Virus record (IMG/VR): IMGVR_UViG_651703040_000001
From: a virus
Taxonomy: Duplodnaviria; Heunggongvirae; Uroviricota; Caudoviricetes; Demerecviridae
Reading direction: 5' to 3' (one strand)
DNA: 64,000 nucleotides
The position numbers and the translations under genes are program-made. The notes below the pieces were generated by a model. It saw nothing but the letters and a program-made list of their open reading frames with translations, was not told where the DNA came from and did no database searches. Shown here one piece after another: positions 1 through 15,997 of the stretch (its first letter is position 1; each line of letters begins with the position of its first letter).

Positions 1-4
1 CACT

Positions 5-364
5 ATGACCAAGATTGCTAACATCGTTGCCGCCAATAAGTCTGCCGTTGTAAACGCTGCAAAACTGGAAGCGGGTAAAATTGCACTAACTCAAATCACG
101 AAAGTAGCGGCTAAAAAAGCACCGTTCATGATCAAAGGCTATATTGATACGCCGGTTGGTCGTGTAGTGATCGCTAACCTGCTGAGTGTAGCGGTTGACC
201 AGTACGCCCCGAGTAACCAGAAAGCGAAAGCGGTAGCGGGGGCGGCTATGGAAGCGGCAATGTTGGAAATGGTCCAAAGTTTTAACATCGCTGAGATGAT
301 CGATGAAATGGTAAAAGGTATCGATATTTCTACTTTTACCAATAACACCGAAAACGAGCAATAA
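5..364 (+). CDS. hypothetical Ala-rich protein (119 aa)
   Basis: Intact ORF from an ATG at position 5. A rho-independent hairpin follows at 385-415. Confidence 0.55.
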   Translation: MTKIANIVAANKSAVVNAAKLEAGKIALTQITKVAAKKAPFMIKGYIDTPVGRVVIANLLSVAVDQYAPSNQKAKAVAGAAMEAAMLEMVQSFNIAEMIDEMVKGIDISTFTNNTENEQ

Positions 365-384
365 CTAGCCTATTGTAAAGTTTT

Positions 385-415
385 GTAAAGGTCGCCTTTT
401 ATGGTGGCCTTTTTT
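385..415 (+). terminator. rho-independent terminator
   Basis: AAAGGTCGCC...GGTGGCCTTTTTTG. Confidence 0.7.
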
Positions 416-479
416 GTTATAATGCCTTTACACCGTTTGAGGACGGTCGAAAATTTTCCCAAAAATTTGGAGGCTTAAA

Positions 480-710
480 ATGGTTGCTTTTTCTTCTTCT
501 GACGCTCTTTTCACTGGTAAAGGCTGGGTATCAAATCGCTGGATTATTCAAGAAATGGTCCAAGAATACGGCATTGCTAAAACTTATAACACCATCCAGA
601 CGCTTTATGATAATGATCAAATCGATCAACAAACAGCGGGCTTTTTGCTGGATACCCTGAAGGCGGAACATTGCACCAAAAAACAAGCTGCAAAAATTAT
701 CTTAATGTAA
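480..710 (+). CDS. hypothetical protein (76 aa)
   Basis: An SD (GGAGG) lies 8 nt upstream of the ATG. A terminator hairpin follows at 712-745. Confidence 0.55.
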   Translation: MVAFSSSDALFTGKGWVSNRWIIQEMVQEYGIAKTYNTIQTLYDNDQIDQQTAGFLLDTLKAEHCTKKQAAKIILM

Positions 711-711
711 T

Positions 712-745
712 TAATAACGGGGCGTTACTTTCGCCCCACTAACTA
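712..745 (+). terminator. rho-independent terminator
   Basis: ACGGGGCGTTACTTTCGCCCCAC. Confidence 0.7.
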
Positions 746-760
746 GGGGAGTATTAAAAA

Positions 761-940
761 ATGGTTATTTTTCGAGCTATTCTGGCGGGTATCTTGGGCG
801 CTATTTTGACCCTTTTCGCCACCGCTTACGGCATTCAAGATTATTGCGGTTTAGTAGTCACAAAACCAATGGTTATTATTGGCGCGGGTATCGCTGCATT
901 TTCTTATCTGCTGGGCTGCATGAATAGTAAAGGAGAATAA
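761..940 (+). CDS. small membrane protein (59 aa)
   Basis: Not in the ORF track (below 60 aa). SD GGGGAG upstream; two hydrophobic helices. Confidence 0.4.
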   Translation: MVIFRAILAGILGAILTLFATAYGIQDYCGLVVTKPMVIIGAGIAAFSYLLGCMNSKGE

Positions 941-942
941 AA

Positions 943-1155
943 ATGATTCGTAACGTTTCTCTTGCACGTTCGAAAGGTTTTAAGCTGGTGGATGCTAACA
1001 CATTCGAGCGTCCAGATTGTAAAATCGAATATGTAGCACGTAACAAAAACGCTTTTCGTGTTACTGAAAAGAAATTCGACAAGCGCGGCAACGTGATCCT
1101 TGAAACGGTTAGGCACTTTGCCACCTTTTACGCTGCGTTTCGTGGGGTACTATGA
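943..1155 (+). CDS. hypothetical protein (70 aa)
   Basis: SD AAAGGAG 7 nt upstream of the ATG. Confidence 0.5.
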   Translation: MIRNVSLARSKGFKLVDANTFERPDCKIEYVARNKNAFRVTEKKFDKRGNVILETVRHFATFYAAFRGVL

Positions 1156-1278
1156 AAAGCGTTATTGTTATTGCCCTTGCAATGGCTGGCGGTTTTATCG
1201 CCACCTTATTTAAGAATGATCCTCTTTCGCTGGGGATCTTTATGTTATTATCGGGCTATCTGATCGGGAGGTTATAAA

Positions 1279-1623
1279 ATGGTTATTTATGAGGGAAATC
1301 GTTTTGTTGCTAACTGCCGCCCGGCATTATTAGCAAGCTATTTAAACCAGCTTTCGCCAGCATATAAGGGCGTTATTAATATTTATGAGGGTAAGGCGCA
1401 TTATAAAATCAATGCGGTCGTTGCCCGTGAACTAGCGTTTCAATTTTTAACCTTTGCAGCTTGCGACGTTCAGGTTATGGGTGAAGCATTAATTGCAGAA
1501 AATGAGGATGATTTTATTAATATTTTCCGTAAGGTGTGCACCGAGCGCCTGATAATGAAAGGAGCATATATTCAATCCACGGCTGATAGTATTGAAACAG
1601 CGTTTCGAAAAATGGGTAAATAA
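1279..1623 (+). CDS. hypothetical protein (114 aa)
   Basis: SD GGGAGG upstream; the ORF fills the gap between its neighbours. Confidence 0.55.
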   Translation: MVIYEGNRFVANCRPALLASYLNQLSPAYKGVINIYEGKAHYKINAVVARELAFQFLTFAACDVQVMGEALIAENEDDFINIFRKVCTERLIMKGAYIQSTADSIETAFRKMGK

Positions 1624-1625
1624 TA

Positions 1626-1786
1626 TGGCTGTTTATATTGCTTTGCTAGGATATGCGTTATCCCTTATTGTTGGTATGGTTATTTATAACACAATCGGCA
1701 ATATTGTGTTATCCCTTGTTGTCTGCACTATATTAGGGCAGTTTTGCGGAATGTTCGTTATATATAAATTAATGCAAGGAAAATAA
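1626..1786 (+). CDS. small membrane protein (about 53 aa)
   Basis: Hydrophobic ORF. Start chosen at the ATG just after the stop of the previous gene. Confidence 0.4.
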
Positions 1787-1896
1787 TACTAATGAGATTA
1801 TATACTTTCGTTGGTAATAGTAAGGCCGCTAATGATTCCGCTGGGGGCGATAACGTTCGCCACTATTGGCAAAAATATATTTACTAGGGAGTTATT

Positions 1897-2091
1897 ATGA
1901 GCAATAAAATTGTTGTAACCAAAACTAGTACAATGGTTGATGTTTTTTACGTGCCCGATACGCCGGAAAACCGACAAGCGGTTGAGCGTGGCGAATATGA
2001 TAAAGTGATTTATGATCACGATGGTTATTATAAGTATTTGGTGGACTCATATGGGGAGGAGGAAAAGATCACGCATCGACTACCAGACTAA
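1897..2091 (+). CDS. hypothetical protein (64 aa)
   Basis: SD GGGAG upstream. A GC hairpin terminator follows at 2097-2125. Confidence 0.5.
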   Translation: MSNKIVVTKTSTMVDVFYVPDTPENRQAVERGEYDKVIYDHDGYYKYLVDSYGEEEKITHRLPD

Positions 2092-2096
2092 TAATC

Positions 2097-2128
2097 ACGG
2101 GGCGCAACTATCTGGAAGTGCCCCAATT
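2097..2128 (+). terminator. rho-independent terminator
   Basis: CGGGGCGCAACTATCTGGAAGTGCCCCAATTTT. Confidence 0.65.
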
Positions 2129-2347
2129 TTCAAATGATAATCATTCTCATTTGACCGCGCCCGCGATGGTTAGCCTGCTAATGATTCGGGTGTTACGTGT
2201 CGCCTTGTGTGATCGTTAGCGCGCTAACTAATTTTCAAGCCTCCTTCAATTTTGCCCTTGATTTAGTATCCCCACCAAAATTAAACGCGTTAGAATGCGT
2301 TTGAGAGCGTTTTAACGCTATATTAGAATTATTCACTGCGTAGGAAT

Positions 2348-2365
2348 ACTGTATATTTATACAGT
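2348..2365. repeat. perfect palindrome ACTGTATA-TT-TATACAGT
   Basis: Inverted repeat with 8-bp arms, read directly in the sequence. Confidence 0.8.
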
Positions 2366-2375
2366 AGGATAAGCT

Positions 2376-2455
2376 GTGGATAAGTCTGTTAATAACGCTT
2401 CAAAATGGCTAGGGTTTTGTCAAGTCAAATCGTGCTGTTGATAAGTCTGTGGATA
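2376..2455. promoter_or_regulatory. cluster of DnaA boxes
   Basis: TGTGGATAA (the reverse of TTATCCACA) at 2376-2384 and 2447-2455. A one-mismatch copy, TGTTGATAA, at 2436-2444. Confidence 0.7.
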
Positions 2456-2485
2456 ACTTAAATAACAGTGTTTCTCACTTCCGTT

Positions 2486-2640
2486 CTTAAATGCGAATCA
2501 TTATCATTTGCATTCCACTATCTAAATGAGAGTCATTCCACTTTTTAAATGAGATTGATTCTCATTTCACTTTCTAAATGCGAATTATTATCATTCTCAT
2601 TCCGCTTTTTAAATGAGAATGATTCTTATTATCATTCGTA
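2486..2640 (+). repeat. five imperfect direct repeats, core TAAATGMGA
   Basis: Core copies at 2488, 2524, 2546, 2575 and 2610. Flanking sequence (ATTATCATT, CATTCCACT) is also repeated. Confidence 0.75.
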
Positions 2641-2643
2641 TTT

Positions 2644-2667
2644 AGCGCAGGGCAATTGCCCTGCGCT
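2644..2667. repeat. 24-bp perfect palindrome AGCGCAGGGCAA/TTGCCCTGCGCT
   Basis: Reverse complement identical over 24 bp. Confidence 0.85.
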
Positions 2668-2713
2668 TTTGTGCAAAACCGACATTGCTCCACGGGTGTT
2701 ACGTGCGGGCGTG

Positions 2714-3408
2714 TATGTGCGAATCCGACAATTTTTGGTAGTGTGCAAATCCGACCCGAAAAATTTTTATAGTGTGCAAATCCGACAATGAATTTTCCCA
2801 AAAACTCCAGCAATCTCGAACTGCGTTCGAATCCTGTGGGGTATGTGCAAATCCGACACGAGTTTACTAGGAGACAGATTTATGGTTTCAGGAATATTTT
2901 TGTGACTTCGATGAGAGGGTGTGTGATTGTGTGGGTTTGGGGAGAAGTTGAGAGAGCGAGAGAAAATTAGGGGGGGAAGCTAGAGGGGCGCATGTTTGGT
3001 GCGGAGCACCTGATTTGTGGGGATTTTGGGGAAGAGTTGAGAAGATTTGGGTTAATTTGAGATTAGTGGAGATAAAGTAAAATTTTATTTGCTAAATGGG
3101 GCAAAATAGCTTGACAAGTGAAAATTTCTGTGGCTCTAAAAACTCAGGCAATCATGGGCCTTCGGCCCGAAATAATGCTGCCATTTTCAGGAGATTATAT
3201 GTTCATGAAAACTTAGGCAATTGTGCAAATCCGACCAGTTTTTAAACTTATGTCAGTGTGCAAATCCGACAATAATTTCTGAAAATGTGTTTTCAAAAAA
3301 TGTTGTCTAGAAATAACCGCCCTCCCCATAACCGCCCTGTATAGGAAAACCGGCCTAGGATATTTATGGTAGGTGAAAACTGCCCTAGAACATGTGCAAA
3401 TCCGATTT
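2714..3408 (+). repeat. seven copies of a 14-bp box GTGCAAATCCGACA
   Basis: Copies at 2717, 2743, 2775, 2846, 3223, 3258 and 3394, all in the same orientation. The 2717 and 3394 copies are variants. Confidence 0.8.
2890..3080 (+). repeat. polypurine (GA-rich) strand-asymmetric tract
   Basis: About 190 nt that are almost exclusively G/A/T on the plus strand. Internal GAGAAGTTGAGAGA and GAAGAGTTGAGAAG repeats. Confidence 0.6.
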
Positions 3409-3802
3409 AAAGTTTAGTGTAAACCCTAGAGTTAGTGTTCAACTATTCCTAGAAACTTAGGAGTCTAGAAGAAAGTGTTGTGCCATCCTAGCAGAAGAGC
3501 GGCAACAGGTGTATCATCTTGAACACAGATATTGCCTTTAAATATTTTTAGTTATTTAAAAGTAAATATACCCCCATTTCATAAGAGTTAGCCCCTCTAG
3601 GCGCGTGCGATTTGATACATCCTCCTAAGTCTCGGTGTGGAAGAACAATTGACGAGAACCTGTACCAGAACCGTCATCAAGTGTTTTCCTACGAGGAATG
3701 ATGTAAATCTACGGCCTAGAGGTAAAAACAAGTTGATGTTTTTAATCTATGAGATTATTATAACATACAGCTCAAATAATGTCAAGAATTTTTCGTTAAC
3801 GT

Positions 3803-4528
3803 TTATACATCGTGATTGACTTTGAGTATGACTCCTTTCGATGCCATGAAAAGGAATGTTGCTAAGTAAGATGACTCGGAATTTAGCGCAGAATAATCTA
3901 CACTTCCTCTAGGTCTAGTTTCTTGTTTAGTGTCAAGAATTGTTGATATATCAAACTTAACAGACTTAGCAACTTTTCTAGCTTGTTCAGGATCACGTAA
4001 AATTTCAAAGTGAGCAGCATCTAGAGTAGGGTTAGATGTTGTTGAGTCGTCAACTATACTTAGATGAACCTGCGCAAGTGTAGATACAATTCCTAGCTTT
4101 AACTCAGATAGAGAAGAATAAGGTGGTTCTACTTTCTTTGTAAGTCTAGGAAGATGATCATATTTACATTGCTTTTGCGGAATCATCAAAATGTTAGGAT
4201 AACATTCTAAACATGACTTTGCATTTCCTTCTTTAAAATGCGGGAGTTCTTTATCTGCAAAGACATGGAATGAATCTGCTGAGAATCCTTTAATAGTAGG
4301 ATCAACGGTTTGAATCAGACGACGTAAACTAATATAAGAAGGTGCTAGAGTAACTTCTCCTGCATCTTTATTATATTTAGGTTGTCCACTAGCATTAATG
4401 TACGCAGGATAGAACTCTGCACAAAATGCTACTGCATGTGCTTCTAGTTCATTAAGCTGAGAAACACATTTTCCATTACAAGCTCTAGCTAATTTAATAA
4501 TCTCTGCTAAATTCTTTTTAATACTCAT
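3803..4528 (-). CDS. hypothetical protein (241 aa)
   Basis: Long ORF, first gene of the minus-strand block. Overlaps the next gene by 4 bp. Confidence 0.6.
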   Translation of the reverse strand: MSIKKNLAEIIKLARACNGKCVSQLNELEAHAVAFCAEFYPAYINASGQPKYNKDAGEVTLAPSYISLRRLIQTVDPTIKGFSADSFHVFADKELPHFKEGNAKSCLECYPNILMIPQKQCKYDHLPRLTKKVEPPYSSLSELKLGIVSTLAQVHLSIVDDSTTSNPTLDAAHFEILRDPEQARKVAKSVKFDISTILDTKQETRPRGSVDYSALNSESSYLATFLFMASKGVILKVNHDV

Positions 4529-5013
4529 ATATCATCCGCCTGTCCACTAGCTGTTGCTGCTAATCTTCTTTCACGTTTCAAGATACCATTAATAATATCT
4601 TTTGCATCAGATTTATTCTTGGCTGTTCTCTTTATTAGGTCAAATAAGACTCTAGGATTAGGAACCTCAAACTCTTCCTCTCCCAGACATATAGTATACT
4701 CTTTCAAATGTAATTGAGTATACTTAGTAAGTGGGAAAGATTCTAGTATTCCAGTACTATCAACAGGAATATGTTCTTTCATAGGAATCACCGCACATTT
4801 CTGTTCCTTCAAGAAATTCAGGAATCCAATAGTTTGTACATCTTCTGAGTCATAAGAGACTTTTCTAATAGCTTCAATAAGCGTAATAGCTTCAAAAGTT
4901 AATACAGTTAAATAACGTCGTACATTTGCACCATCAGTTATTTGTAGAAAGTAAACCGACGAGTCCTCCGTCGGTTCAAACAGTATATTAGCGAATTTAA
5001 ATGCTTCTTTCAT
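4525..5013 (-). CDS. hypothetical protein (162 aa)
   Basis: Translationally coupled ORF. Confidence 0.6.
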   Translation of the reverse strand: MKEAFKFANILFEPTEDSSVYFLQITDGANVRRYLTVLTFEAITLIEAIRKVSYDSEDVQTIGFLNFLKEQKCAVIPMKEHIPVDSTGILESFPLTKYTQLHLKEYTICLGEEEFEVPNPRVLFDLIKRTAKNKSDAKDIINGILKRERRLAATASGQADDI

Positions 5014-5627
5014 TAATTACCTCTCTTATCTTCATTAAGAGCAGCTCCCAACGCCTCCATAATAGCATCTTCTAAACTTCCATGTTTACTAGGATTATTA
5101 AAATGAATAGTACAAACAGAACTCCTAGAAACTCCAGCATCCGCAGGTGCTACGCTTCGCATATCAGATTCAAAAGCTTCTTGAGTATGTTTCAACTGTA
5201 CAGAAGGGCCGTAATCTTCCGCAAACTTATATGACTGCGTACTACTTACCACACCCCCACAAGGAACATTGTGCAAATCCGACATTAATTTTTTATCGGA
5301 GTTATTCAGCATTGAGATTGTCCCTGACTGCCACGGATCTCTAATAGTCACTGGAGTACTGGGGCGGTTCACCTCAGTCTTCACAAGTTTGTACCCTGCA
5401 TCGATTAGTACATTAATCAAGTTATCAGCCGGGATGCGGGCCGTGCCAAAAATCTTACGAGCATCTTCGAGCTTACCTTCAAGATCTTTACAGGCTCTAA
5501 GGTCAGTGTGTGCAAATGTTAGCTTCATAGATTTGAATTGTACAGTAGCAGTTAAATCTTTAAAGCTATAATCCCATGTGTTCAGTTCATGATCCGGTAC
5601 TACTTGAATAGGTTGTTGTGTAAACAT
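5013..5627 (-). CDS. hypothetical protein (204 aa)
   Basis: ORF in an operon with the two genes downstream. Contains one copy of the 14-bp GTGCAAATCCGACA box at 5272-5285. Confidence 0.6.
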   Translation of the reverse strand: MFTQQPIQVVPDHELNTWDYSFKDLTATVQFKSMKLTFAHTDLRACKDLEGKLEDARKIFGTARIPADNLINVLIDAGYKLVKTEVNRPSTPVTIRDPWQSGTISMLNNSDKKLMSDLHNVPCGGVVSSTQSYKFAEDYGPSVQLKHTQEAFESDMRSVAPADAGVSRSSVCTIHFNNPSKHGSLEDAIMEALGAALNEDKRGN

Positions 5628-5812
5628 TATTTATTCTCCAGTTTGTCTAACAGTTTATGGGCTGCTAGATTATATTGTTTAAGTTCACGATTAAGGATTT
5701 GGTTTTCACACTTTAACTCTAAATTCTTATTATTAAGAACGTTGCAGATTAGTAGAAGTGCTAGTATTAGTAACAGAGAACCTACGAGCATTAAAAGAAA
5801 AAGAGTTTCCAT
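5627..5812 (-). CDS. small membrane protein (61 aa)
   Basis: N-terminal TM segment followed by a coiled-coil tail. Confidence 0.45.
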   Translation of the reverse strand: METLFLLMLVGSLLLILALLLICNVLNNKNLELKCENQILNRELKQYNLAAHKLLDKLENK

Positions 5813-6045
5813 TATTTAACTCCCGTGTAACGTTTGAGATATATGATGAAGTCTTCTGCTGTATGCGCTGCGCTACCTTGAGCTACGAATAGCTTGAGAG
5901 CTTCACGTTGTAGTTTGAGACCCGCTACCTCACCACGTAATTTTACTAGATCTTCTGCTAGTTCTCTAGCTCTACGCATAATAGCAAAAGATACAAGTAC
6001 TACGATGAATAACATAACTACTAAAATAATTGCTATGATTTCCAT
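5812..6045 (-). CDS. small membrane protein (77 aa)
   Basis: Hydrophobic N-terminus. Confidence 0.5.
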   Translation of the reverse strand: MEIIAIILVVMLFIVVLVSFAIMRRARELAEDLVKLRGEVAGLKLQREALKLFVAQGSAAHTAEDFIIYLKRYTGVK

Positions 6046-6323
6046 ATTAACATCCAGCTTTTATCACACATTTTGGCATGATCTATTAGTTCATTCATTG
6101 ATGTATTGTTATCATAAATGCACTCTAGTATATACCTTCTGTCAAATTCGTCAACCAAATATTCTACGCTATTTATTACTACTTTATACAGATCCGGGAC
6201 TAGAGAGCATGTATTTGGTATGGGGCGACTGCTTAAGTCTATTTCATTATAGCCCCACGTTGTTTTAAATAGTTTGTTACTAAGTGCTGCTAATGGATTT
6301 GACCATATAATATAGCTACTCAC
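6033..6323 (-). CDS. hypothetical protein (96 aa)
   Basis: ORF on the coherent strand. Confidence 0.5.
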   Translation of the reverse strand: MSSYIIWSNPLAALSNKLFKTTWGYNEIDLSSRPIPNTCSLVPDLYKVVINSVEYLVDEFDRRYILECIYDNNTSMNELIDHAKMCDKSWMLIWKS

Positions 6324-6864
6324 TACTTATCTCCATTCTTAACTTTGAAAACTTATTATACCAAACTATATGATTATCGTCAATTACAAATTTATGATAA
6401 CATGCTGGTACGGTATAAGTTCCATAATCCGTGACACGCTGCACAACCTTGTGTGCGCACAGTCGACAACCATGCCCTTCTAAATGAGATCTAGCAGTTT
6501 GCCAGTAATAACCTTCATGATCTGGACAATAGATCTCGACTTGCTGTTGCATTGTCTTATAATTTACCCGTTCATACCCAAAGAAAGCTCCATGAACTGC
6601 AACAGCTTTCTTGATAAATATAAGGTTTAGTGCTTCTTGTTGAAAGTCGGGGTGTAGCTGCTTAATCTTAGTTCTATTAATAGATCCATCTGATTTGATA
6701 AACCTATTTATTGGGAAGTTGTTAGCTTCCTCGATTAATAATTCATTTACTTTTTCTCTCATATTAGATATTCTCACAGCTAAGGTAGAAACATTCGTAA
6801 GCATCACCAGTAAACTCTTTATCTTGTAGTATACACTTAGCCTGGTCTTCTGGTACTCCAGCAT
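6316..6864 (-). CDS. hypothetical protein (182 aa), possible Cys/His metal site
   Basis: ORF. The start may be the internal ATG at 6762, which would avoid a 100-bp overlap with the upstream gene. Confidence 0.5.
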   Translation of the reverse strand: MLEYQKTRLSVYYKIKSLLVMLTNVSTLAVRISNMREKVNELLIEEANNFPINRFIKSDGSINRTKIKQLHPDFQQEALNLIFIKKAVAVHGAFFGYERVNYKTMQQQVEIYCPDHEGYYWQTARSHLEGHGCRLCAHKVVQRVTDYGTYTVPACYHKFVIDDNHIVWYNKFSKLRMEISSE

Positions 6865-6988
6865 CTAATAATTGTTGTTTACTTGGCTTTTCAGCGAATA
6901 CTTTTACAAAATACTCACCATCCTGATTATACTCATTTATATCTCTAGTAAGGACGTATACTTGCATTTGAAGTTCCTTGAAACACAA
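6764..6988 (-). CDS. hypothetical protein (74 aa)
   Basis: ORF. A bidirectional hairpin terminator at 6985-7018 lies just upstream of its start. Confidence 0.4.
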   Translation of the reverse strand: MCFKELQMQVYVLTRDINEYNQDGEYFVKVFAEKPSKQQLLDAGVPEDQAKCILQDKEFTGDAYECFYLSCENI

Positions 6989-7021
6989 AAGGCCAGAACA
7001 ATTAAGTCCTGGCCCCTAGAA

Positions 7022-7459
7022 TTAATGAAGTTGTTTACCACTTCTTAAAATAGTGGTCGTTTTCATAAGACTTAACGTTGTATCACGCTTTTTGATTTGT
7101 TTGTCGAGTTCATTGGTACGTTTGTCAATGTAAGCGTTAATAGCCATATTCATAGCGGAGGCGAGATCTTCTTTGGTTATCTCTTCATTATCTAAAGCTA
7201 ATTTAGCTAAAGAATCGAAAGTACTAGAAAGTCCTATAAGATCAGAAGCTTCCCCAGCCAAAATAGGGTTAACATTATCTATTGTTGCTTCTAACATGGA
7301 GTTAACAATATCTTTTCCGTCTACTAGACCAGATTCAATATCACTCTCCCATTCCTTCATCTGCTCCAGCAATGGATTTTTCTTTTCTGTCATGGTAAAG
7401 GTTTCCTGTGTCAGTTGGTAAGAAGGACGATTGAGCTTTAGGTGGATGTTGTTTAGCAA
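7022..7459 (-). CDS. hypothetical acidic protein (up to 145 aa)
   Basis: ORF. Probably starts at the internal ATG at about 7393 (SD AGGAAACC). Confidence 0.5.
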   Translation of the reverse strand: MLNNIHLKLNRPSYQLTQETFTMTEKKNPLLEQMKEWESDIESGLVDGKDIVNSMLEATIDNVNPILAGEASDLIGLSSTFDSLAKLALDNEEITKEDLASAMNMAINAYIDKRTNELDKQIKKRDTTLSLMKTTTILRSGKQLH

Positions 7460-7802
7460 TCCAGTTAAGAATCAGCACACGACTAGGGACAATATCGGTA
7501 TTATACCAGAAATCATGAACCCATTGACGAGCATCCTCAAACTTACCAAATTTATATGCTTTCTTAAACAATTCAAACCCAAAACAATCTGGTGTGAAGT
7601 CTACTTCACGATATTGAACTACTTTAGAACCAGTTAGGTCTTGGATCGCTGCATTAATTTCTGTATGCGAGAATTTTGTTTCGTGAAACTTATTAAAGAA
7701 TCGGTAGTTGAAGCGTCCGTTCGTTTCGACAAACAACTGGATGAAGAGATCGTTAAATTGGTTATCAAACCAGTAATTCTGTAGTTGTTGTAGTGCTGTC
7801 AT
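7341..7802 (-). CDS. hypothetical protein (153 aa)
   Basis: ORF. Confidence 0.55.
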   Translation of the reverse strand: MTALQQLQNYWFDNQFNDLFIQLFVETNGRFNYRFFNKFHETKFSHTEINAAIQDLTGSKVVQYREVDFTPDCFGFELFKKAYKFGKFEDARQWVHDFWYNTDIVPSRVLILNWIAKQHPPKAQSSFLPTDTGNLYHDRKEKSIAGADEGMGE

Positions 7803-7999
7803 TTACGAACTCCGTTAATTGCCACGATAATGCCTTCGTACATAAAAGGAAGTAGTTCAGAAGTGTAGAAGATATTTTCCGTTATTCCTAGATGTCGAAA
7901 AAGTATATTAAATAATGCTGTTAGAAATACAATCTGAGGCAGTAATACAAAATACTCAGTTACAATCTTTGGTGCCTGATAAACAAGACGTTTTATCAT
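7799..7999 (-). CDS. small membrane protein (66 aa)
   Basis: Hydrophobic ORF. Confidence 0.4.
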   Translation of the reverse strand: MIKRLVYQAPKIVTEYFVLLPQIVFLTALFNILFRHLGITENIFYTSELLPFMYEGIIVAINGVRK

Positions 8000-8098
8000 T
8001 GTTTTTAAGTCTCCTTATTACTTTGGCCTGCTCCACAATAATAAAAACTGCGAGCACTAATAGTGCTAGTAGCCCCGCAGTAATTGGTACTAAATCAA

Positions 8099-8425
8099 TC
8101 ATGGGAGACGCCATACGTAACTAGCTGTCTGTAGAGTCTTAGCAGTATCATCATGGTACATTACTACAGACTTTGGTGAATAGCTATCAGCTAGTTCTTT
8201 ACGAATCATTTCACACTCTTCACCAGTATCAATATTTTTAACTATCACTTTCATATTAAGTGGTGTTAATACAGAAAGTGGTTTCCAAGAGTCCTCAATT
8301 TCAATTCCTACCTTTTTCTCGATTAACATGAGAACTTCTAGTGTATCATCTGGAATACTAATATTATTATTCACAAACTGTAATATCTCATGTAAGGTAT
8401 TTAATTCATTAAAATTAAGCTTCAT
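8099..8425 (-). CDS. hypothetical protein (108 aa)
   Basis: ORF. Confidence 0.5.
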   Translation of the reverse strand: MKLNFNELNTLHEILQFVNNNISIPDDTLEVLMLIEKKVGIEIEDSWKPLSVLTPLNMKVIVKNIDTGEECEMIRKELADSYSPKSVVMYHDDTAKTLQTASYVWRLP

Positions 8426-8660
8426 CTTTAAGAATATCCTCTACCATATCACAAGACTGTTGCAATTCATCAGCAATACGTTTAATATCAGTTTTTGTTA
8501 TTTTACCAACTAACATCACCAGTAACATAGAAAAGATAATAAGTGGAACTGGAATAACAAATAAGGCTACCTTAACAACATTCTTTGGCGTCCATGTGTG
8601 GTATTTAGTAACCAGTACACTAACCACAATTAGATAAAACGCTAGAATAAACATCATCAT
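8415..8660 (-). CDS. membrane protein (81 aa)
   Basis: Two TM helices. Confidence 0.5.
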   Translation of the reverse strand: MMMFILAFYLIVVSVLVTKYHTWTPKNVVKVALFVIPVPLIIFSMLLVMLVGKITKTDIKRIADELQQSCDMVEDILKDEA

Positions 8661-8938
8661 TTTTTAATCTCCGTAATTATCTGTGCACGCATTACTTTAT
8701 TAGGTAGTTTTGTATTCCCAGCAATTGCTTCGATATTGTTTAGTTTTTCTTTTAGAATATCTGAGCGTCTCTGAGCTAGTTCAATATCTTGTTCTTGTCC
8801 TATTAAGCGGCAGTGGAGTCCACTATTAGTAATAAGCATACTCTCCATATTTTTTCGTAGGCTTACAATACCAATAACCCCACCAATCGCTGCTAGTGTC
8901 ATAAGCACTAGCAATCCGATGAGAATTTCAATTAACAT
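8657..8938 (-). CDS. membrane protein (93 aa)
   Basis: N-terminal TM helix plus a coiled coil. Confidence 0.5.
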   Translation of the reverse strand: MLIEILIGLLVLMTLAAIGGVIGIVSLRKNMESMLITNSGLHCRLIGQEQDIELAQRRSDILKEKLNNIEAIAGNTKLPNKVMRAQIITEIKK

Positions 8939-9098
8939 TAAATACCCCTACATTTTTCGTTATCCGGGACTAATTTACACATTTCTACTTTCAGTTCTTT
9001 TGCTGAGTTTTCTAGTTTAGAAACTTTATTGTGGATAAGTCCCAAAAATATCGCTTGGAAAACTACCATTATTGCTACTAATGCTAGTTTATTCTCCA

Positions 9099-9350
9099 TT
9101 ATTTCTTACCTTTCAGTTGCTTAACTTCACGCTCAAAGGATGCTGCACGGCGTTCGGCAGTTGCCTGATGCTCTTTCGCAAAACGTGCTTCCTGTTTTGC
9201 AAGGTTGAACGCCATAGCATTCTTATTCAGGGAATCATACATCTTTTTCATTGCCGGAATAGACATTTTCATCAGTTGCCCCTCAAATCCTTGCATATCG
9301 AGGAGAATTGCCAGAACGTTAGCCATTTCATTTTTAGTCATGTTTTCCAT
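9099..9350 (-). CDS. hypothetical protein (about 83 aa)
   Basis: The track ORF starts at 9368 inside the conserved promoter leader. The real start is probably the ATG 6 nt after the GAGAGGAAA SD. Confidence 0.5.
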   Translation of the reverse strand: MENMTKNEMANVLAILLDMQGFEGQLMKMSIPAMKKMYDSLNKNAMAFNLAKQEARFAKEHQATAERRAASFEREVKQLKGKK

Positions 9351-9367
9351 TAGAATTTCCTCTCTCA

Positions 9368-9425
9368 TTAATTTATGAACTTATTATACAGAATTTTAAG
9401 GCTTAAAGCAACTGAATTTTTTAAG
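9368..9425 (-). promoter_or_regulatory. early promoter-leader module
   Basis: Minus sense: TTGCTT, 17 nt, TATAAT, then CATAAATTAATGAGAGAGGAAATTCTA-ATG. Confidence 0.65.
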
Positions 9426-9428
9426 TAC

Positions 9429-9860
9429 TTACCAATCGTTAACAACGCCGGAGAACTCAGAAGCAAAAACTTTTTCAAATTTCTCTGCAATTTCAGGATG
9501 ATCTTTGCAGATCAGCTCAATACAGGCTTCTGGAGTCATTCCCTCATCTTCAGGATCACCGTAGTATTTATCCCAAAGATCATCAGGAATGATATGCTCC
9601 GCCAAATCTTGGAAAGAGATTAACTGATAACGTTCTGCCTCCTCAGGGATAAGAATTTCGCACAGATTTTTATCTATATCGCTACGATAATCCGCAATTA
9701 ATAGGGCATTGCAAGCATGACATTCCCAGACCATCAAACGTTCAGAGATAGGATTAGACTTATCCTGAACGTAAGACTGGAACAAGGTTCGGAAAGTTGC
9801 CTTAACTTGTTCAAACTTATCTGCTGCTGCGAAAACTAGAGCTTTATCAACTTTGTTCAT
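9429..9860 (-). CDS. hypothetical protein (143 aa)
   Basis: ORF with a promoter module at 9872-9925. Confidence 0.55.
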   Translation of the reverse strand: MNKVDKALVFAAADKFEQVKATFRTLFQSYVQDKSNPISERLMVWECHACNALLIADYRSDIDKNLCEILIPEEAERYQLISFQDLAEHIIPDDLWDKYYGDPEDEGMTPEACIELICKDHPEIAEKFEKVFASEFSGVVNDW

Positions 9861-10027
9861 TTTGATTCCTTCTCATCAATTTATAAAGTAATTATACAGA
9901 AACTTAAGCATTTTAGCAAATAAAACTTTTAATTAAAATGCCTAATCCCGTACCAATAGCAATACAAATGATTATAAGTATCGCTATCGCTTGTATGATT
10001 CGTTTAATAATAGCCTCAGCTATATAC

Positions 10028-10549
10028 TTAGACATCTAACATCCAACTAGTTTTATCATGCGAAGTGTACTTACCACCCATGATGTCTTCCAGGCGTACT
10101 GGTGATTTTGCATACTCGACACAAACGTTAATATAACGAGGATCTCCCATTAACTCAAAGTGAGTATGCCCATGTAAGTTCTTTTTACCTCTCAGCTCCC
10201 CAGGGTGTATTGGAGCATGGGAAAGCCAGAAGTTTTTATATTTAACTAGTGATTGTACGTTATCTACAACTCCTATTAAGTCTTTGAAAGATAATCCTTC
10301 TCGTTCTAAGTCGTGGTTTCCCAGAACTAACGTAGTTCTAACATTGCCAAAGAGTTTTTCGAACTTCTCCAAACCATTTCTAGATACAAATGCGTCTCCT
10401 AAAATATAGAATACTGTACGCTTATCTTTCATGGATGTAATAGTATCCATAATAAATTCATCATGCTCTTCCATAGTAGAGAAGATTGGTCTGAATTTAG
10501 TAATATTTGCATGCCCCAAGTGGAGATCACTCCAAAAGCGAACTTTCAT
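10028..10549 (-). CDS. calcineurin-like metallophosphoesterase (YfcE-like, 173 aa)
   Basis: Motifs DLHLGH, GDAF, GNHD and GHTH. The start overlaps the stop of the upstream gene (ATGA). Confidence 0.7.
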   Translation of the reverse strand: MKVRFWSDLHLGHANITKFRPIFSTMEEHDEFIMDTITSMKDKRTVFYILGDAFVSRNGLEKFEKLFGNVRTTLVLGNHDLEREGLSFKDLIGVVDNVQSLVKYKNFWLSHAPIHPGELRGKKNLHGHTHFELMGDPRYINVCVEYAKSPVRLEDIMGGKYTSHDKTSWMLDV

Positions 10550-15244: not shown

Positions 15245-15997
15245 TTATCCAACTAGTGGTTCTAGCTCTAAGTCACAGAAGTTATAAACTTCTAGTTTAA
15301 GGTTATTGATACCATCGAATTTATTAACTAATTCGTGAGTAATATATTTTGCAGGAATACCACTTTCAGATGGATGATCTGATTTAATAGTGAACTTCTG
15401 CTCAGCTGGTACTACATTTACTATCAAAGAATCCATATCTAAATGGTTTGTTTCTCTGAGTAACTCTCCTTCATTGGGGAATCTAACATCTGTTATTACG
15501 GCGACGTCTGGGTCGTCTTTAGCGATGGATTGCTCCAGAATTATGAGCCAAATGCGTTCATGCACCAGCTGCCTTCCTAGCTCTGTTCCTACGAGCTGTA
15601 ACATTTTTCTCGGAGAAATAAATAAACTATAAAGTCCGTCCTCTTTATTCTCTGAGATAAGTTGTTGAGGATTAAGATATTTTTCCTCAAAAATAGGCCA
15701 AACGTACGAGAAGTCTTCAAACTTATCTATACCGTACTTAAACCACACATCTCTGGCTCGCTCCAATTGAGACTGTGTGACCGTAAACCATTGGTCAATC
15801 TCTTTTCCCCTGCGCTCTCCTAGAAACTCTGGAGTTACACCGAGGATTACGGATGCAAGTTCATAAACGGGCTTAGCAAAACTATAACGACGAGAAAAAC
15901 ACGTTGGATACGTGTCATTACACCAATCGATAATTAATTTTGCAACGGTATCTTTTCCCGAACCAGCTTCACCATGTAAACCGACTAATACTGACAT
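15245..15997 (-). CDS. dnk: deoxynucleoside monophosphate kinase (250 aa)
   Basis: P-loop GEAGSGKDT. Resembles the T5 dNMP kinase in size and sequence. Confidence 0.8.
   Translation of the reverse strand: MSVLVGLHGEAGSGKDTVAKLIIDWCNDTYPTCFSRRYSFAKPVYELASVILGVTPEFLGERRGKEIDQWFTVTQSQLERARDVWFKYGIDKFEDFSYVWPIFEEKYLNPQQLISENKEDGLYSLFISPRKMLQLVGTELGRQLVHERIWLIILEQSIAKDDPDVAVITDVRFPNEGELLRETNHLDMDSLIVNVVPAEQKFTIKSDHPSESGIPAKYITHELVNKFDGINNLKLEVYNFCDLELEPLVG

What the first reader, a model, noticed from the sequence alone, without database searches (positions are those of the whole stretch)
2100..3450. Non-coding region with DnaA boxes, palindromes and repeats, resembling a T5 injection-stop zone
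This ~1.4 kb has no ORFs. It carries two perfect DnaA boxes plus a one-mismatch copy, several perfect palindromes (ACTGTATA-TT-TATACAGT and a 24-bp AGCGCAGGGCAATTGCCCTGCGCT), five TAAATGMGA direct repeats, a polypurine tract and AACCGCCCT-like repeats. It lies where small plus-strand genes give way to the minus-strand early genes. This matches published descriptions of the T5 first-step-transfer injection-stop region. How these elements act is still poorly defined.
Basis: partly seen in the sequence, partly recalled or inferred. Interest (0 to 1): 0.6.

Follow-up and report, generated by a model that had tools for sequence, protein, structure and literature searches.

The report
T5-type injection-stop and repeat-end region
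This stretch is the already described non-coding "injection-stop" region at the end of the left terminal repeat of a T5-like Salmonella phage. Its conserved core turns out to be near-consensus binding sites for three host proteins (LexA, DnaA and Fur), which gives testable candidates for why T5 DNA entry pauses.

Summary
The window is Salmonella phage Spc35, a Tequintavirus (100% identity). Window position equals Spc35 position minus 6437. The finding is real and is the orthologue of T5 "Repeat Region 3", the published injection-stop (iss) region, at about 87% identity with every named element in the same order. As a kind of feature it is already known.

The interval is composite:
- **iss core (2347-2670).** This holds palD, two DnaA-box pairs, the TAAATGMGA repeats, and a hairpin carrying the T5 nick motif CCCTGCGC. 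The published T5 shear point maps to about 2618.
- **Repeat boundary (2670-3420).** They flank the physical end of the terminal repeat at 3136/3137.

Two points appear in no T5 paper I could search:
- **Fur boxes.** The TAAATGMGA repeats score 11-13 of 14 against the Fur consensus. There are seven sites against 0.11 expected. One site is identical to the E. coli mntH operator.
- **SOS box.** palD matches the LexA consensus at 19 of 20 positions, better than the host recA and lexA operators.

The LexA and DnaA module is conserved across all the Demerecviridae examined. The Fur array is present in most of them. No binding or function was tested. The mechanism remains inference.

The parts
2092..3802 (.). 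Whole non-coding gap between the last rightward pre-early gene (1897-2091) and the first leftward early gene (3803-4528)
   Evidence: ORF list and the Spc35 annotation
2099..2124 (+). Hairpin followed by AAUUUUC: likely terminator of the rightward pre-early operon
   Evidence: RNA fold -14.2 kcal/mol, z = -3.2. An equivalent GC hairpin with a T-run is present in Epseptimavirus.
2132..2152 (.). Isolated Fur box AAATGATAATCATTCTCATTT (7-1-7 core at 2135-2149, 13 of 14)
   Evidence: Best Fur match in the window. Positions 2135-2154 are 100% identical to the E. coli mntH promoter, next to the palindrome AAACATAGCAACGGCTATGTTT, which I take from memory to be the MntR box. The same 21-mer occurs in an unrelated Phapecoctavirus.
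2215..2228 (+). Palindrome GTTAGCGCGCTAAC followed by TAATTTTC, lying where T5 palindrome C / putative terminator aligns (T5 9194 maps to window 2218); the two sequences differ
   Evidence: The fold is weak (z = 0.4).
2262..2347 (.). Conserved block of unknown role
   Evidence: 71% of columns are invariant in six phages of two genera. A promoter-like site at 2301-2329 is not conserved in T5.
2347..2366 (.). palD, a near-consensus LexA (SOS) box TACTGTATATTTATACAGTA
   Evidence: 19 of 20 to the consensus. It is the only site within 3 mismatches in 64 kb, against 0.02 expected. E. coli recA has 4 mismatches and lexA has 5 and 6. The site is conserved in all T5-like phages checked.
2349..2479 (.). 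IRD'-spacer-IRC' equivalent (131 bp). Its inverted partner lies at Spc35 5393-5539, outside the window.
   Evidence: Coordinates mapped from T5. Inverted repeat of 80-84%. About 84% of columns are invariant in six phages (measured over 2334-2480).
2375..2395 (-). DnaA-box pair 1: TGTGGATAA (perfect), 3 bp, TGTTAATAA (2 mismatches)
2436..2456 (-). DnaA-box pair 2: TGTTGATAA (1 mismatch), 3 bp, TGTGGATAA (perfect)
2488..2637 (.). The 7-1-7 cores start at 2492, 2550, 2579, 2585, 2614 and 2620.
   Evidence: Six sites of at least 11 of 14 against 0.11 in shuffles, 0 of 2000 shuffles reaching it. Genuine operators score the same. The half-site that was not used as an anchor emerges as ATT(C/A)TCA. 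The T5 shear estimate maps to 2618.
2644..2667 (+). Palindrome J: GC-rich hairpin followed by UUUUG, a + strand terminator
   Evidence: The right arm is invariant, while the left arm and loop vary but still pair.
2659..2666 (+). T5 major-nick motif CCCTGCGC (T5 nick 1, 7.9%)
   Evidence: T5 annotation mapped onto the window. T5 nick 2 has the same 8-mer, and its orthologue is at window 15808.
2670..2857 (+). Direct repeat D copies 1-5 (TGTGCAAATCCGAC), left of the repeat end
2880..3080 (+). G-rich, C-poor tract. GGGTTTGGGGAGAAG at 2933-2947 resembles the first 25 nt of the genome.
3096..3200 (.). Conserved block holding the right end of the terminal repeat (3136|3137), which is the physical right end of the virion DNA
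   Evidence: The last 60 nt of the Spc35 record match window 3077-3136. The cut falls at the same motif position in T5 and in My1. 80% of columns are invariant.
3222..3406 (+). Direct repeat D copies 6-8, right of the repeat end, in unique DNA
3313..3338 (+). ATAACCGCCCT, two copies
   Evidence: Conserved in six phages.
3757..3785 (-). Consensus sigma-70 promoter (TTGACA-17-TATAAT with TG) firing leftward into the non-coding region. It lies outside the finding's interval.
   Evidence: 12 of 12. TTGACA-17-TATCAT sits at the same place in T5-type phages.

Best explanation
**Identity (shown, about 0.97).** The interval is the Spc35 orthologue of T5 Repeat Region 3. This is the non-coding right end of the left terminal repeat, where first-step DNA transfer halts.

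**Anatomy (shown).** It is a composite, read left to right:
1. Terminator hairpins that close the rightward pre-early operon.
2. A roughly 320-bp core (2347-2670) packed with near-consensus sites for pre-existing host DNA-binding proteins: one LexA box, two DnaA-box pairs, and five to seven Fur boxes.
3. A hairpin/terminator that ends the core and carries the T5 nick motif.
4. Eight TGTGCAAATCCGAC repeats and a G-rich tract flanking the cut site that creates the end of the terminal repeat.

**Mechanism (inferred, about 0.35).** The core is the last DNA to enter the cell before the pause. Host LexA, DnaA and Fe-Fur need no new protein synthesis. I propose that they load on it and form a compact nucleoprotein complex. 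With the flanking terminators, this complex would hold the DNA at the entry site. It would also stop RNA polymerase on the rightward operon from reeling in the rest of the genome, until A1 and A2 act.

The repeats to the right of 2670 more likely serve recognition of the genome end (a terminase or pac-like role) than the stop.
For: Identity and synteny:
- 100% identity to Spc35, whose 1-9573 is annotated as FST DNA and left repeat.
- 87% identity to T5, with all annotated T5 elements in the same order.
- The literature describes this region as the iss candidate and its mechanism as unresolved in 2026.

Position:
- The T5 shear estimate maps to 2618 and the nick motif to 2659-2666.

Host-factor sites:
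- DnaA pairs.
- Fur boxes: 7 sites of at least 11 of 14 against 0.11 expected, with 0 of 2000 shuffles reaching that count.
- Five E. coli promoter regions long described as Fur-regulated (fhuA, fepA-fes, fepD-entS, fepB-entC, mntH) score 11-13 on the same scale. In 17.5 kb of ent-fep DNA only four sites reach 11, and three of them lie in those intergenic promoter regions.
- One phage box is identical to the mntH operator. mntH belongs to the core Fur regulon.
- The phage boxes keep the G/C and T positions that Fur contacts.
- LexA box at 19 of 20.

Conservation of the order LexA box, DnaA pairs, Fur array, CCCTGCGC, D repeats:
- It holds in Tequintavirus, Epseptimavirus, Sugarlandvirus, Myunavirus and Erwinia phage KEY. 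Proteus phage PL1 (A1 only 42% identical) shows the same order with a degenerate nick motif and a variant D repeat, read from its sequence.
- The same Fur palindrome recurs in unrelated phages (Phapecoctavirus, and lambda next to cos). This argues for a host protein rather than a T5-specific one.

The D repeats straddle the repeat end in T5, Spc35 and My1.

Davison reports that whole-genome ejection has been shown in vitro with FhuA proteoliposomes. This points away from the receptor and toward a cellular component.
Against: - No binding or function was tested here.
- Physically, proteins bound to DNA that has already entered cannot simply oppose capsid pressure. The complex may be an anchor or insulator rather than the brake.
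- The Fur array is absent in Serratia phage Kamaji, where a different repeat replaces it, and in Vibrio phage D308. It therefore cannot be universally required.
- FhuA and FepA receptors are most abundant in iron-poor cells, where Fur is largely metal-free (my knowledge).
- T5 grows on recA strains (my knowledge). Removal of LexA by RecA-dependent cleavage therefore cannot be required for transfer to resume.
- The 52-bp spacer and the block at 2262-2347 are as conserved as the boxes and remain unexplained.
Confidence: 0.55

Rival explanations
1. Structure-only stop. The palindromes, the 131-bp inverted repeat with its partner 3.3 kb upstream, and the nick at palindrome J form a hairpin, cruciform or knot. 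This cannot pass the tail or membrane channel. The host-protein sites are incidental.
For: - Dense palindromes, with a very stable hairpin at 2644-2667.
- The nick motif sits within about 45 bp of the mapped shear point.
- The long inverted repeat is present in Spc35.
- A structural block is among the classical suggestions.
Against: - Complete genome ejection has been shown in vitro with FhuA proteoliposomes, as cited by Davison.
- Nick-less T5 mutants are viable (my recollection, not checked).
- Type 4 T5-like phages lack the upstream partner repeat.
- Structure alone does not explain why the palindromes match the LexA, DnaA and Fur consensus so closely.
Confidence: 0.2
2. Genome-end and transcription-boundary region only. 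The interval mainly holds operon terminators and the recognition sites for cutting the terminal-repeat end (D repeats, G-rich tract). The pause is set by the virion or the envelope, not by this sequence.
For: - The repeat end lies inside the interval, at a motif conserved out to My1.
- The D repeats flank it on both sides in T5, Spc35 and My1.
- Terminator hairpins are present.
- The block around the end is 80% invariant.
Against: - The most conserved block (IRD'-spacer-IRC', 84% invariant) lies about 700 bp from the end. It has a second copy 3.3 kb upstream that is not near any end.
- The mapped shear point coincides with the core, not with the end.
Confidence: 0.2
3. Ordinary operators. The LexA, DnaA and Fur boxes regulate phage promoters. 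They would give iron-, damage- or growth-responsive expression of pre-early genes or of a small RNA, with no role in DNA transfer.
For: - In Epseptimavirus the isolated Fur box abuts the ribosome-binding site of the last pre-early ORF, and its GATAAT could serve as a -10 element.
- The upstream copy of the LexA/DnaA module lies between divergent pre-early promoters in T5.
- Weak promoter-like sites overlap the array.
Against: - The array is 400 bp from the nearest upstream gene, and no gene follows for 1.1 kb.
- Promoter-like hexamers in and around it score 9-10 of 12 and are not conserved.
- A transcript starting in the array would meet the palindrome J terminator within 10-70 nt.
- No RNA family matches above threshold.
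Confidence: 0.15
4. Look-alike sites for a phage protein. The TAAATGMGA palindromes are bound by a phage protein such as A2, and their likeness to Fur boxes is a coincidence of AT-rich palindromes.
For: - A2 is annotated as a DNA-binding protein and is needed for second-step transfer.
- Position 4 of the half-site is mostly G in the phages, where Fur prefers T.
Against: - A 20-nt identity to the host mntH operator.
- The same palindromes occur in phages with no detected sequence similarity to T5 beyond the repeat motif itself.
- The scores equal or exceed those of genuine operators.
- The hexamer-shifted overlapping frames typical of Fur arrays are present.
Confidence: 0.12
5. DnaA-dependent replication origin in the terminal repeat.
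For: A cluster of DnaA boxes lies next to AT-rich DNA.
Against: - Only one GATC in 1.35 kb. I did not search for oriC-type 13-mers.
- No IHF core site.
- The T5 origins map near the middle of the genome.
Confidence: 0.03

Closest known systems
T5 Repeat Region 3 / injection-stop signal (Heusterspreute 1987; Wang 2005; Davison 2015 and bioRxiv 10.1101/866236)
   Same: Orthologous in position, order of elements and sequence. It has paired DnaA boxes 3 bp apart, the C/E and D repeats, palindromes D and J, the nick motif and the repeat end.
   Different: - Spc35 has one C-type repeat fewer and eight D repeats instead of nine.
- Its palindrome J is perfect, so the nick motif occurs on both strands.
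- It has an extra isolated Fur box at 2132-2152 that T5 lacks at that place.
Fur operators of Enterobacterales (mntH, fhuA, ent-fep promoters)
   Same: The 7-1-7 core TGATAATnATTATCA is matched at 11-13 of 14. Frames overlap with 6-nt shifts, and one site is identical to the mntH operator.
   Different: These are arrays of five to seven sites with no adjacent gene or convincing promoter. The spacing is 23-35 bp rather than one compact operator.
SOS (LexA) boxes of recA, lexA and colicin promoters
   Same: CTGT-N8-ACAG within a 19 of 20 match to TACTGTATATATATACAGTA.
   Different: The site lies in a virulent phage and does not overlap a conserved promoter. It is always adjacent to a DnaA-box pair and is present twice per first-step DNA.
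Chromosomal DnaA-box clusters (oriC, datA)
   Same: Several 9-mers of graded affinity lie in one orientation and are closely spaced.
   Different: - There is no GATC cluster (one GATC in 1.35 kb).
- There is no IHF core site.
- Replication of T5 starts elsewhere.
Lambda cos region (cosQ-cosN-cosB)
   Same: It is a non-coding genome-end region with repeated protein-binding sites and a host-factor site. Lambda carries a perfect Fur-type 7-1-7 palindrome 37 nt from its right end.
   Different: Lambda has cohesive ends, whereas these phages have a 9.6-kb direct terminal repeat. In T5-like phages the Fur array is about 500 bp from the end.
T7 stepwise genome entry
   Same: Only the leading part of the genome enters first, and further entry depends on events inside the cell (my knowledge).
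   Different: In T7 transcription pulls the DNA in. Here, terminators and protein sites lie between the inward-facing operon and the DNA still to enter. This would do the opposite (inference).

Membership tests
T5-type iss region (Repeat Region 3) | Lies at the right end of the left terminal repeat, between the rightward pre-early and leftward early genes | tested here: met
   Spc35 annotation and identity of the genome's right end with window 3077-3136
T5-type iss region (Repeat Region 3) | Sequence homology to T5 9194-10409 with the same order of elements | tested here: met
   87% mean identity, and all T5 features map onto the window
T5-type iss region (Repeat Region 3) | IRD'-spacer-IRC' with two DnaA-box pairs 3 bp apart, and an inverted partner upstream | tested here: met
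   Pairs at 2375-2395 and 2436-2456. The partner is at Spc35 5393-5539, outside the window.
T5-type iss region (Repeat Region 3) | Cis-acting halt of DNA transfer at about 8% of the genome | not testable with these tools
   Position is consistent: the nick motif is at 7.7% and the repeat end at 8.1% of Spc35. No experiment is available for Spc35.
Fur operator | Match to GATAATGATAATCATTATC / TGATAATnATTATCA at the level of genuine operators | tested here: met
   11-13 of 14 and up to 16 of 19. Host operators score 11-13 of 14.
Fur operator | Conserved G/C and T contact positions with an AT-rich centre | tested here: met
   In 32 distinct boxes anchored only on [AT]AATG, the free half-site is ATT(C/A)TCA with C in 27 of 32.
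Fur operator | Metal-dependent Fur binding and repression of an overlapping promoter | not testable with these tools
   No conserved promoter overlaps the array
LexA (SOS) box | CTGT-N8-ACAG palindrome close to the 20-bp consensus | tested here: met
   19 of 20, unique in the window. recA has 4 mismatches and lexA has 5 and 6.
LexA (SOS) box | LexA binding and damage-inducible control of a gene | not testable with these tools
   No conserved promoter was found at the site
DnaA-dependent origin (oriC-like) | DnaA boxes with an AT-rich unwinding element, a GATC cluster and an IHF site | tested here: not met
   DnaA boxes are present, but there is one GATC in 1.35 kb and no IHF core site. I did not search for oriC-type 13-mers.
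Intrinsic terminator | GC-rich hairpin followed by a U-run | tested here: met
   2644-2667 with UUUUG, -24.4 kcal/mol. 2099-2124 with AAUUUUC, -14.2 kcal/mol. The simple scan missed both because of its loop and T-run rules.
Terminase recognition region at a terminal-repeat end | The cut site lies inside a conserved block flanked by repeated motifs | tested here: met
   End at 3136/3137, in a block that is 80% invariant. D repeats lie on both sides, as in T5 and My1.
Terminase recognition region at a terminal-repeat end | Binding of the small terminase subunit to the repeats | not testable with these tools
   None

The most novel reading that the evidence does not exclude
The conserved core of the T5 injection-stop region is a landing pad for three host regulators that report cell state: LexA for DNA damage, DnaA for replication and energy status, and Fur for iron. 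Their binding to the last DNA to enter either creates or stabilises the first-step pause, or tunes when transfer resumes. If so, the long-sought host component of two-step injection is a set of ordinary transcription factors. The Fur and LexA parts of this reading appear in no T5 paper I could search.
Probability: 0.22. Interest if true: 0.85.

Novelty: already known. Interest (0 to 1): 0.45.

Why it matters
Why T5 DNA entry stops at 8% and how it restarts has been open since 1968. Papers from 2026 still call it poorly understood.

The region itself is not new. Reading its repeats and palindromes as consensus LexA and Fur sites beside the known DnaA boxes is new as far as I could search. It turns a catalogue of "repeats and palindromes" into three specific host proteins. 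Each can be deleted, depleted or footprinted, and each of its sites can be mutated one by one.

It also separates the iss candidate (2347-2670) from the genome-end elements (2670-3420). That split should guide deletion experiments.

The same Fur palindrome lies next to lambda cos and in a Phapecoctavirus. This hints that phages may use host Fur on non-coding DNA more widely.

Tried and rejected
- **Rfam scan of 1800-4000.** It gave only sub-threshold hits: PrrF at 29 bits against a gathering score of 90, plus rliI and Hrs12. All lie on the palindrome J hairpin region. I rejected them as chance or terminator matches.
- **IHF core consensus.** No site in 1900-3900.
- **CTAG enrichment in 3300-3740.** Not unusual: 9 per 450 bp against 8 elsewhere.
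- **oriC-like features.** One GATC only.
- **Pfam on A1 and A2.** No families, so no clue to what they bind.
- **Promoters inside the Fur array.** Only 9 of 12 matches, not conserved, and aimed straight at a terminator.
- **Fur titration to derepress host iron uptake.** I rejected this for T5-like phages, because host DNA is degraded within minutes. One entering copy also cannot titrate thousands of Fur molecules.
- **LexA cleavage as the restart signal.** I consider it unlikely. A2 mutants degrade host DNA yet do not transfer, and T5 grows on recA strains (my knowledge).
- **BLAST of the isolated Fur box against E. coli genomes.** It gave only short hits, but these were the ones that led to mntH and to the lambdoid cos regions.
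- **Papers I could not read.** Heusterspreute 1987 and Davison 2015 are not held, and I did not attempt Wang 2005. Earlier mention of Fur or LexA cannot be fully excluded.
Full report
**Source and setting.**
A megablast of 2000-3800 hits Salmonella phage Spc35 (Tequintavirus) at 100% over its whole length, and hundreds of T5-like phages at 80-95%. Window position equals Spc35 position minus 6437. Spc35 annotates 1-9573 as the left terminal repeat and first-step-transfer DNA. The last rightward pre-early gene ends at window 2091 and the first leftward early gene ends at 3803. The real non-coding gap is therefore 2092-3802.

**Checking the observation.**
- Two perfect DnaA boxes lie at 2375 and 2448, and a one-mismatch copy at 2436.
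- The two palindromes lie at 2348-2365 and 2644-2667.
- Five TAAATGMGA repeats are present.
- ATAACCGCCCT occurs twice.
- DnaA boxes are not enriched across the window (9 against 7.8). They are strongly clustered here, in two pairs with 12-nt spacing.
- The "polypurine tract" is better described as a 200-bp G-rich, C-poor tract.
- "No ORFs" means no annotated or conserved ORFs. Three mechanical ORFs of 60-80 aa exist, and frame-breaking indels relative to T5 fall inside the longest of them.
It occurs eight times, all in one orientation (9 in the window against 0.01 expected).

**Identity.**
Alignment with T5 (AY587007) gives about 87% identity from about 2230 to 3450. T5's annotated features map cleanly.

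| T5 feature | Window position |
|---|---|
| palC | 2218 |
| IRD' | 2349-2389 |
| IRC' | 2441-2479 |
| 7.9% nick | 2659-2666 |
| Repeat end | 3136 |
| Last D repeat | 3405 |

Davison's preprint describes this region as Repeat Region 3. It calls it the probable iss, conserved in 25 T5-like phages, with paired DnaA boxes. It says the functions of the other repeats are "impossible to guess". Two 2026 papers still call the mechanism poorly understood.

**A composite region.**
In a six-phage alignment spanning Tequintavirus and Epseptimavirus, four blocks stand out.

| Block | Columns invariant in six phages |
|---|---|
| IRD'-spacer-IRC' | 84% |
| Block around the repeat end (3096-3200) | 80% |
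| Palindrome J | 77% |
| 2262-2347 | 71% |

- The last 60 nt of the Spc35 record equal window 3077-3136.
- The cut falls at the same place in T5 and in the distant Pectobacterium phage My1, within the motif GGGGCAAAA..TTGACAA.TGAAAA..|AAAAAC.
- The D repeats straddle this end in T5, Spc35 and My1. They are absent near the genome's left end.
- I therefore assign 2670-3420 to genome-end functions rather than to the stop. This is inference.
- The published T5 shear estimate (9618) maps to window 2618, inside the last TAAATGMGA unit.
- The right arm of palindrome J is CCCTGCGC. T5 annotates the same 8-mer at its 18.3% nick, and the orthologous copy is at window 15808.
- Palindrome J followed by UUUUG is also a strong + strand terminator (-24.4 kcal/mol, z = -5). 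A second hairpin at 2099-2124 closes the operon.

**The TAAATGMGA repeats are Fur boxes.**
I scored them against the 7-1-7 Fur consensus TGATAATnATTATCA.
- 2120-2640 holds seven sites of at least 11 of 14, and four of at least 12. The remaining 63.5 kb holds eleven and one.
- Dinucleotide shuffles of the region give 0.11, and none of 2000 reaches seven.
- On the same scale the E. coli fhuA, fepA-fes and fepD-entS promoters score 11, and fepB-entC and mntH score 13.
- In 17.5 kb of ent-fep DNA only four sites reach 11, and three of them lie in those intergenic promoter regions.
- Window 2135-2154 is identical to the mntH promoter sequence, beside the palindrome that I recall as its MntR box. 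mntH belongs to the core Fur regulon.
- When boxes from ten phages are anchored only on [AT]AATG, the free half-site comes out as ATT(C/A)TCATT. It keeps the C/G and T positions that Fur contacts.
- Many units contain frames shifted by 6 nt, as in classical Fur hexamer arrays.

Distribution of the array among relatives:
- It is present, with changing copy number and sequence, in Tequintavirus, Epseptimavirus, Sugarlandvirus, My1, Erwinia phage KEY and Proteus phage PL1.
- It always lies between the second DnaA pair and the nick motif.
- It is replaced by another repeat in Serratia phage Kamaji and is absent in Vibrio phage D308.
- The same palindrome, including the identical 21-mer, occurs three to six times in a non-coding gap of unrelated Phapecoctavirus genomes.
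- A perfect TGATAATCATTATCA lies 37 nt from the right end of lambda, and beside cos in lambdoid prophages.

**palD is an SOS box.**
- TACTGTATATTTATACAGTA (2347-2366) matches the LexA consensus at 19 of 20. It is the only site within three mismatches in 64 kb, against 0.02 expected.
- The next best 20-mer in the window has five mismatches. The host's own recA box has four, and its lexA boxes five and six.
- The box is kept with one or two mismatches, always with CTG-N10-CAG intact, in the nine relatives of Tequintavirus, Epseptimavirus, Sugarlandvirus, My1, Kamaji and KEY. PL1 and Vibrio D308 keep it with four mismatches.
- It lies next to the DnaA boxes in the Tequintavirus, Epseptimavirus, PL1, Kamaji and D308 sequences I compared.
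- A second copy lies in the upstream partner repeat, with three perfect TTATCCACA.
- Neither "Fur" nor "LexA"/"SOS" occurs in Davison's preprint.
- No paper in the library links either protein to T5-like phages. The older subscription papers could not be read.

**Mechanism.**
What is shown is sequence only. My best inference (about 0.35) has four steps.
1. The core 2347-2670 is the last DNA to enter before the pause.
2. Pre-existing host LexA, DnaA and Fur load on it. This fits a stop that needs no new protein synthesis, as Davison describes.
3. It also fits a stop that does not occur with FhuA proteoliposomes, where the whole genome is ejected.
4. Together with the flanking terminators, the complex anchors the DNA. 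It also keeps RNA polymerase on the inward-facing operon from pulling in more DNA until A1 and A2 act.

Points against this reading:
- Bound proteins cannot by themselves resist capsid pressure.
- The Fur array is missing in two relatives.
- Fur is largely metal-free in the iron-poor cells that display most FhuA.
- T5 grows on recA hosts.

The rivals are a purely structural block, a region concerned only with genome ends and termination, ordinary operators, look-alike sites for a phage protein, and a replication origin. They are listed separately with their tests.

**Verdict.**
As a kind of feature the region is already known. The added value is threefold: the split into an iss core and a genome-end part, the nick motif, and the Fur and LexA identities of elements so far described only as repeats and palindromes. 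These give a direct experimental handle on an old question.

Noticed in passing
window 3757-3785 (- strand): A perfect sigma-70 promoter (TTGACA-17-TATAAT with an upstream TG) lies just downstream of the last leftward early gene. It fires into about 600 bp of non-coding DNA toward the repeat end. T5-type phages have TTGACA-17-TATCAT at the same place. The 230-300 bp downstream of it exists in two unrelated versions, shared in a mosaic fashion among the phages.
   Followed up: partly
L021 552-566 (lambda J02459 48451-48465); L014 about 1505-1527; L015 about 1501-1523: Phage lambda carries a perfect Fur-type palindrome TGATAATCATTATCA 37 nt from its right cohesive end, just upstream of GGGTCCT. 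Lambdoid prophages of O157:H7 and O68 carry GCAAATGATAATCATTATCATTTGC at the same place, between the lysis and terminase genes. I found no paper that mentions it.
   Followed up: partly
L003 1507-1590; L004 1424-1630: Phapecoctavirus genomes (anhysbys, phiWec188), unrelated to T5, hold three to six copies of the same Fur-box palindrome in a non-coding gap. One copy is the 21-mer identical to window 2132-2152.
   Followed up: partly
window 15808-15815: A second CCCTGCGC lies at 18.8% of the Spc35 genome. It is orthologous to the site T5 annotates as its 18.3% major nick. No exact copy was found near the expected 32.6% nick.
   Followed up: yes
window 5270-5283: A ninth, perfect TGTGCAAATCCGAC lies inside the leftward gene 5013-5627, far from the array.
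   Followed up: no
window 2933-2947 versus L001 1-25: GGGTTTGGGGAGAAG in the G-rich tract resembles the extreme left end of the genome (GCCCAGTGGGTTGGGGGGAGAATAC). It may be a shared recognition motif for the two end cuts.
   Followed up: no
L012 1590-1640 (also L009, L011, L013): In Epseptimavirus the isolated Fur box lies immediately upstream of the ribosome-binding site of an 80-codon last pre-early ORF that Spc35 lacks. In Spc35 the box is orphaned, downstream of the operon terminator.
   Followed up: partly
L008 2130-2280: In Serratia phage Kamaji the LexA box, DnaA pairs and D repeats are kept. The Fur array is replaced by two copies of AATAACGTAAGGTGA(C/T)TAATGATT.
   Followed up: partly
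L019 7088-7184 and 10192-10335: Vibrio phage D308, a distant T5-like phage, has five perfect TTATCCACA boxes in its pre-early region and no Fur array. One LexA-like box (7165) lies beside the first box cluster. A second LexA-like box (10939) lies about 600 bp beyond the second cluster. Some of the boxes lie under tiny annotated ORFs that may be spurious.
   Followed up: no
L009 2597: The left-repeat end annotated for phage saus132 falls in the G-rich tract, about 220 bp short of the conserved cut motif used by T5, Spc35 and My1. The annotation may be imprecise.
   Followed up: no
window 2397-2435 and 2459-2479: The spacer between the DnaA pairs, and the palindrome-like AAATAACAGTGTTTCTCACTT, are almost invariant in six phages. 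They match no site I could name.
   Followed up: no
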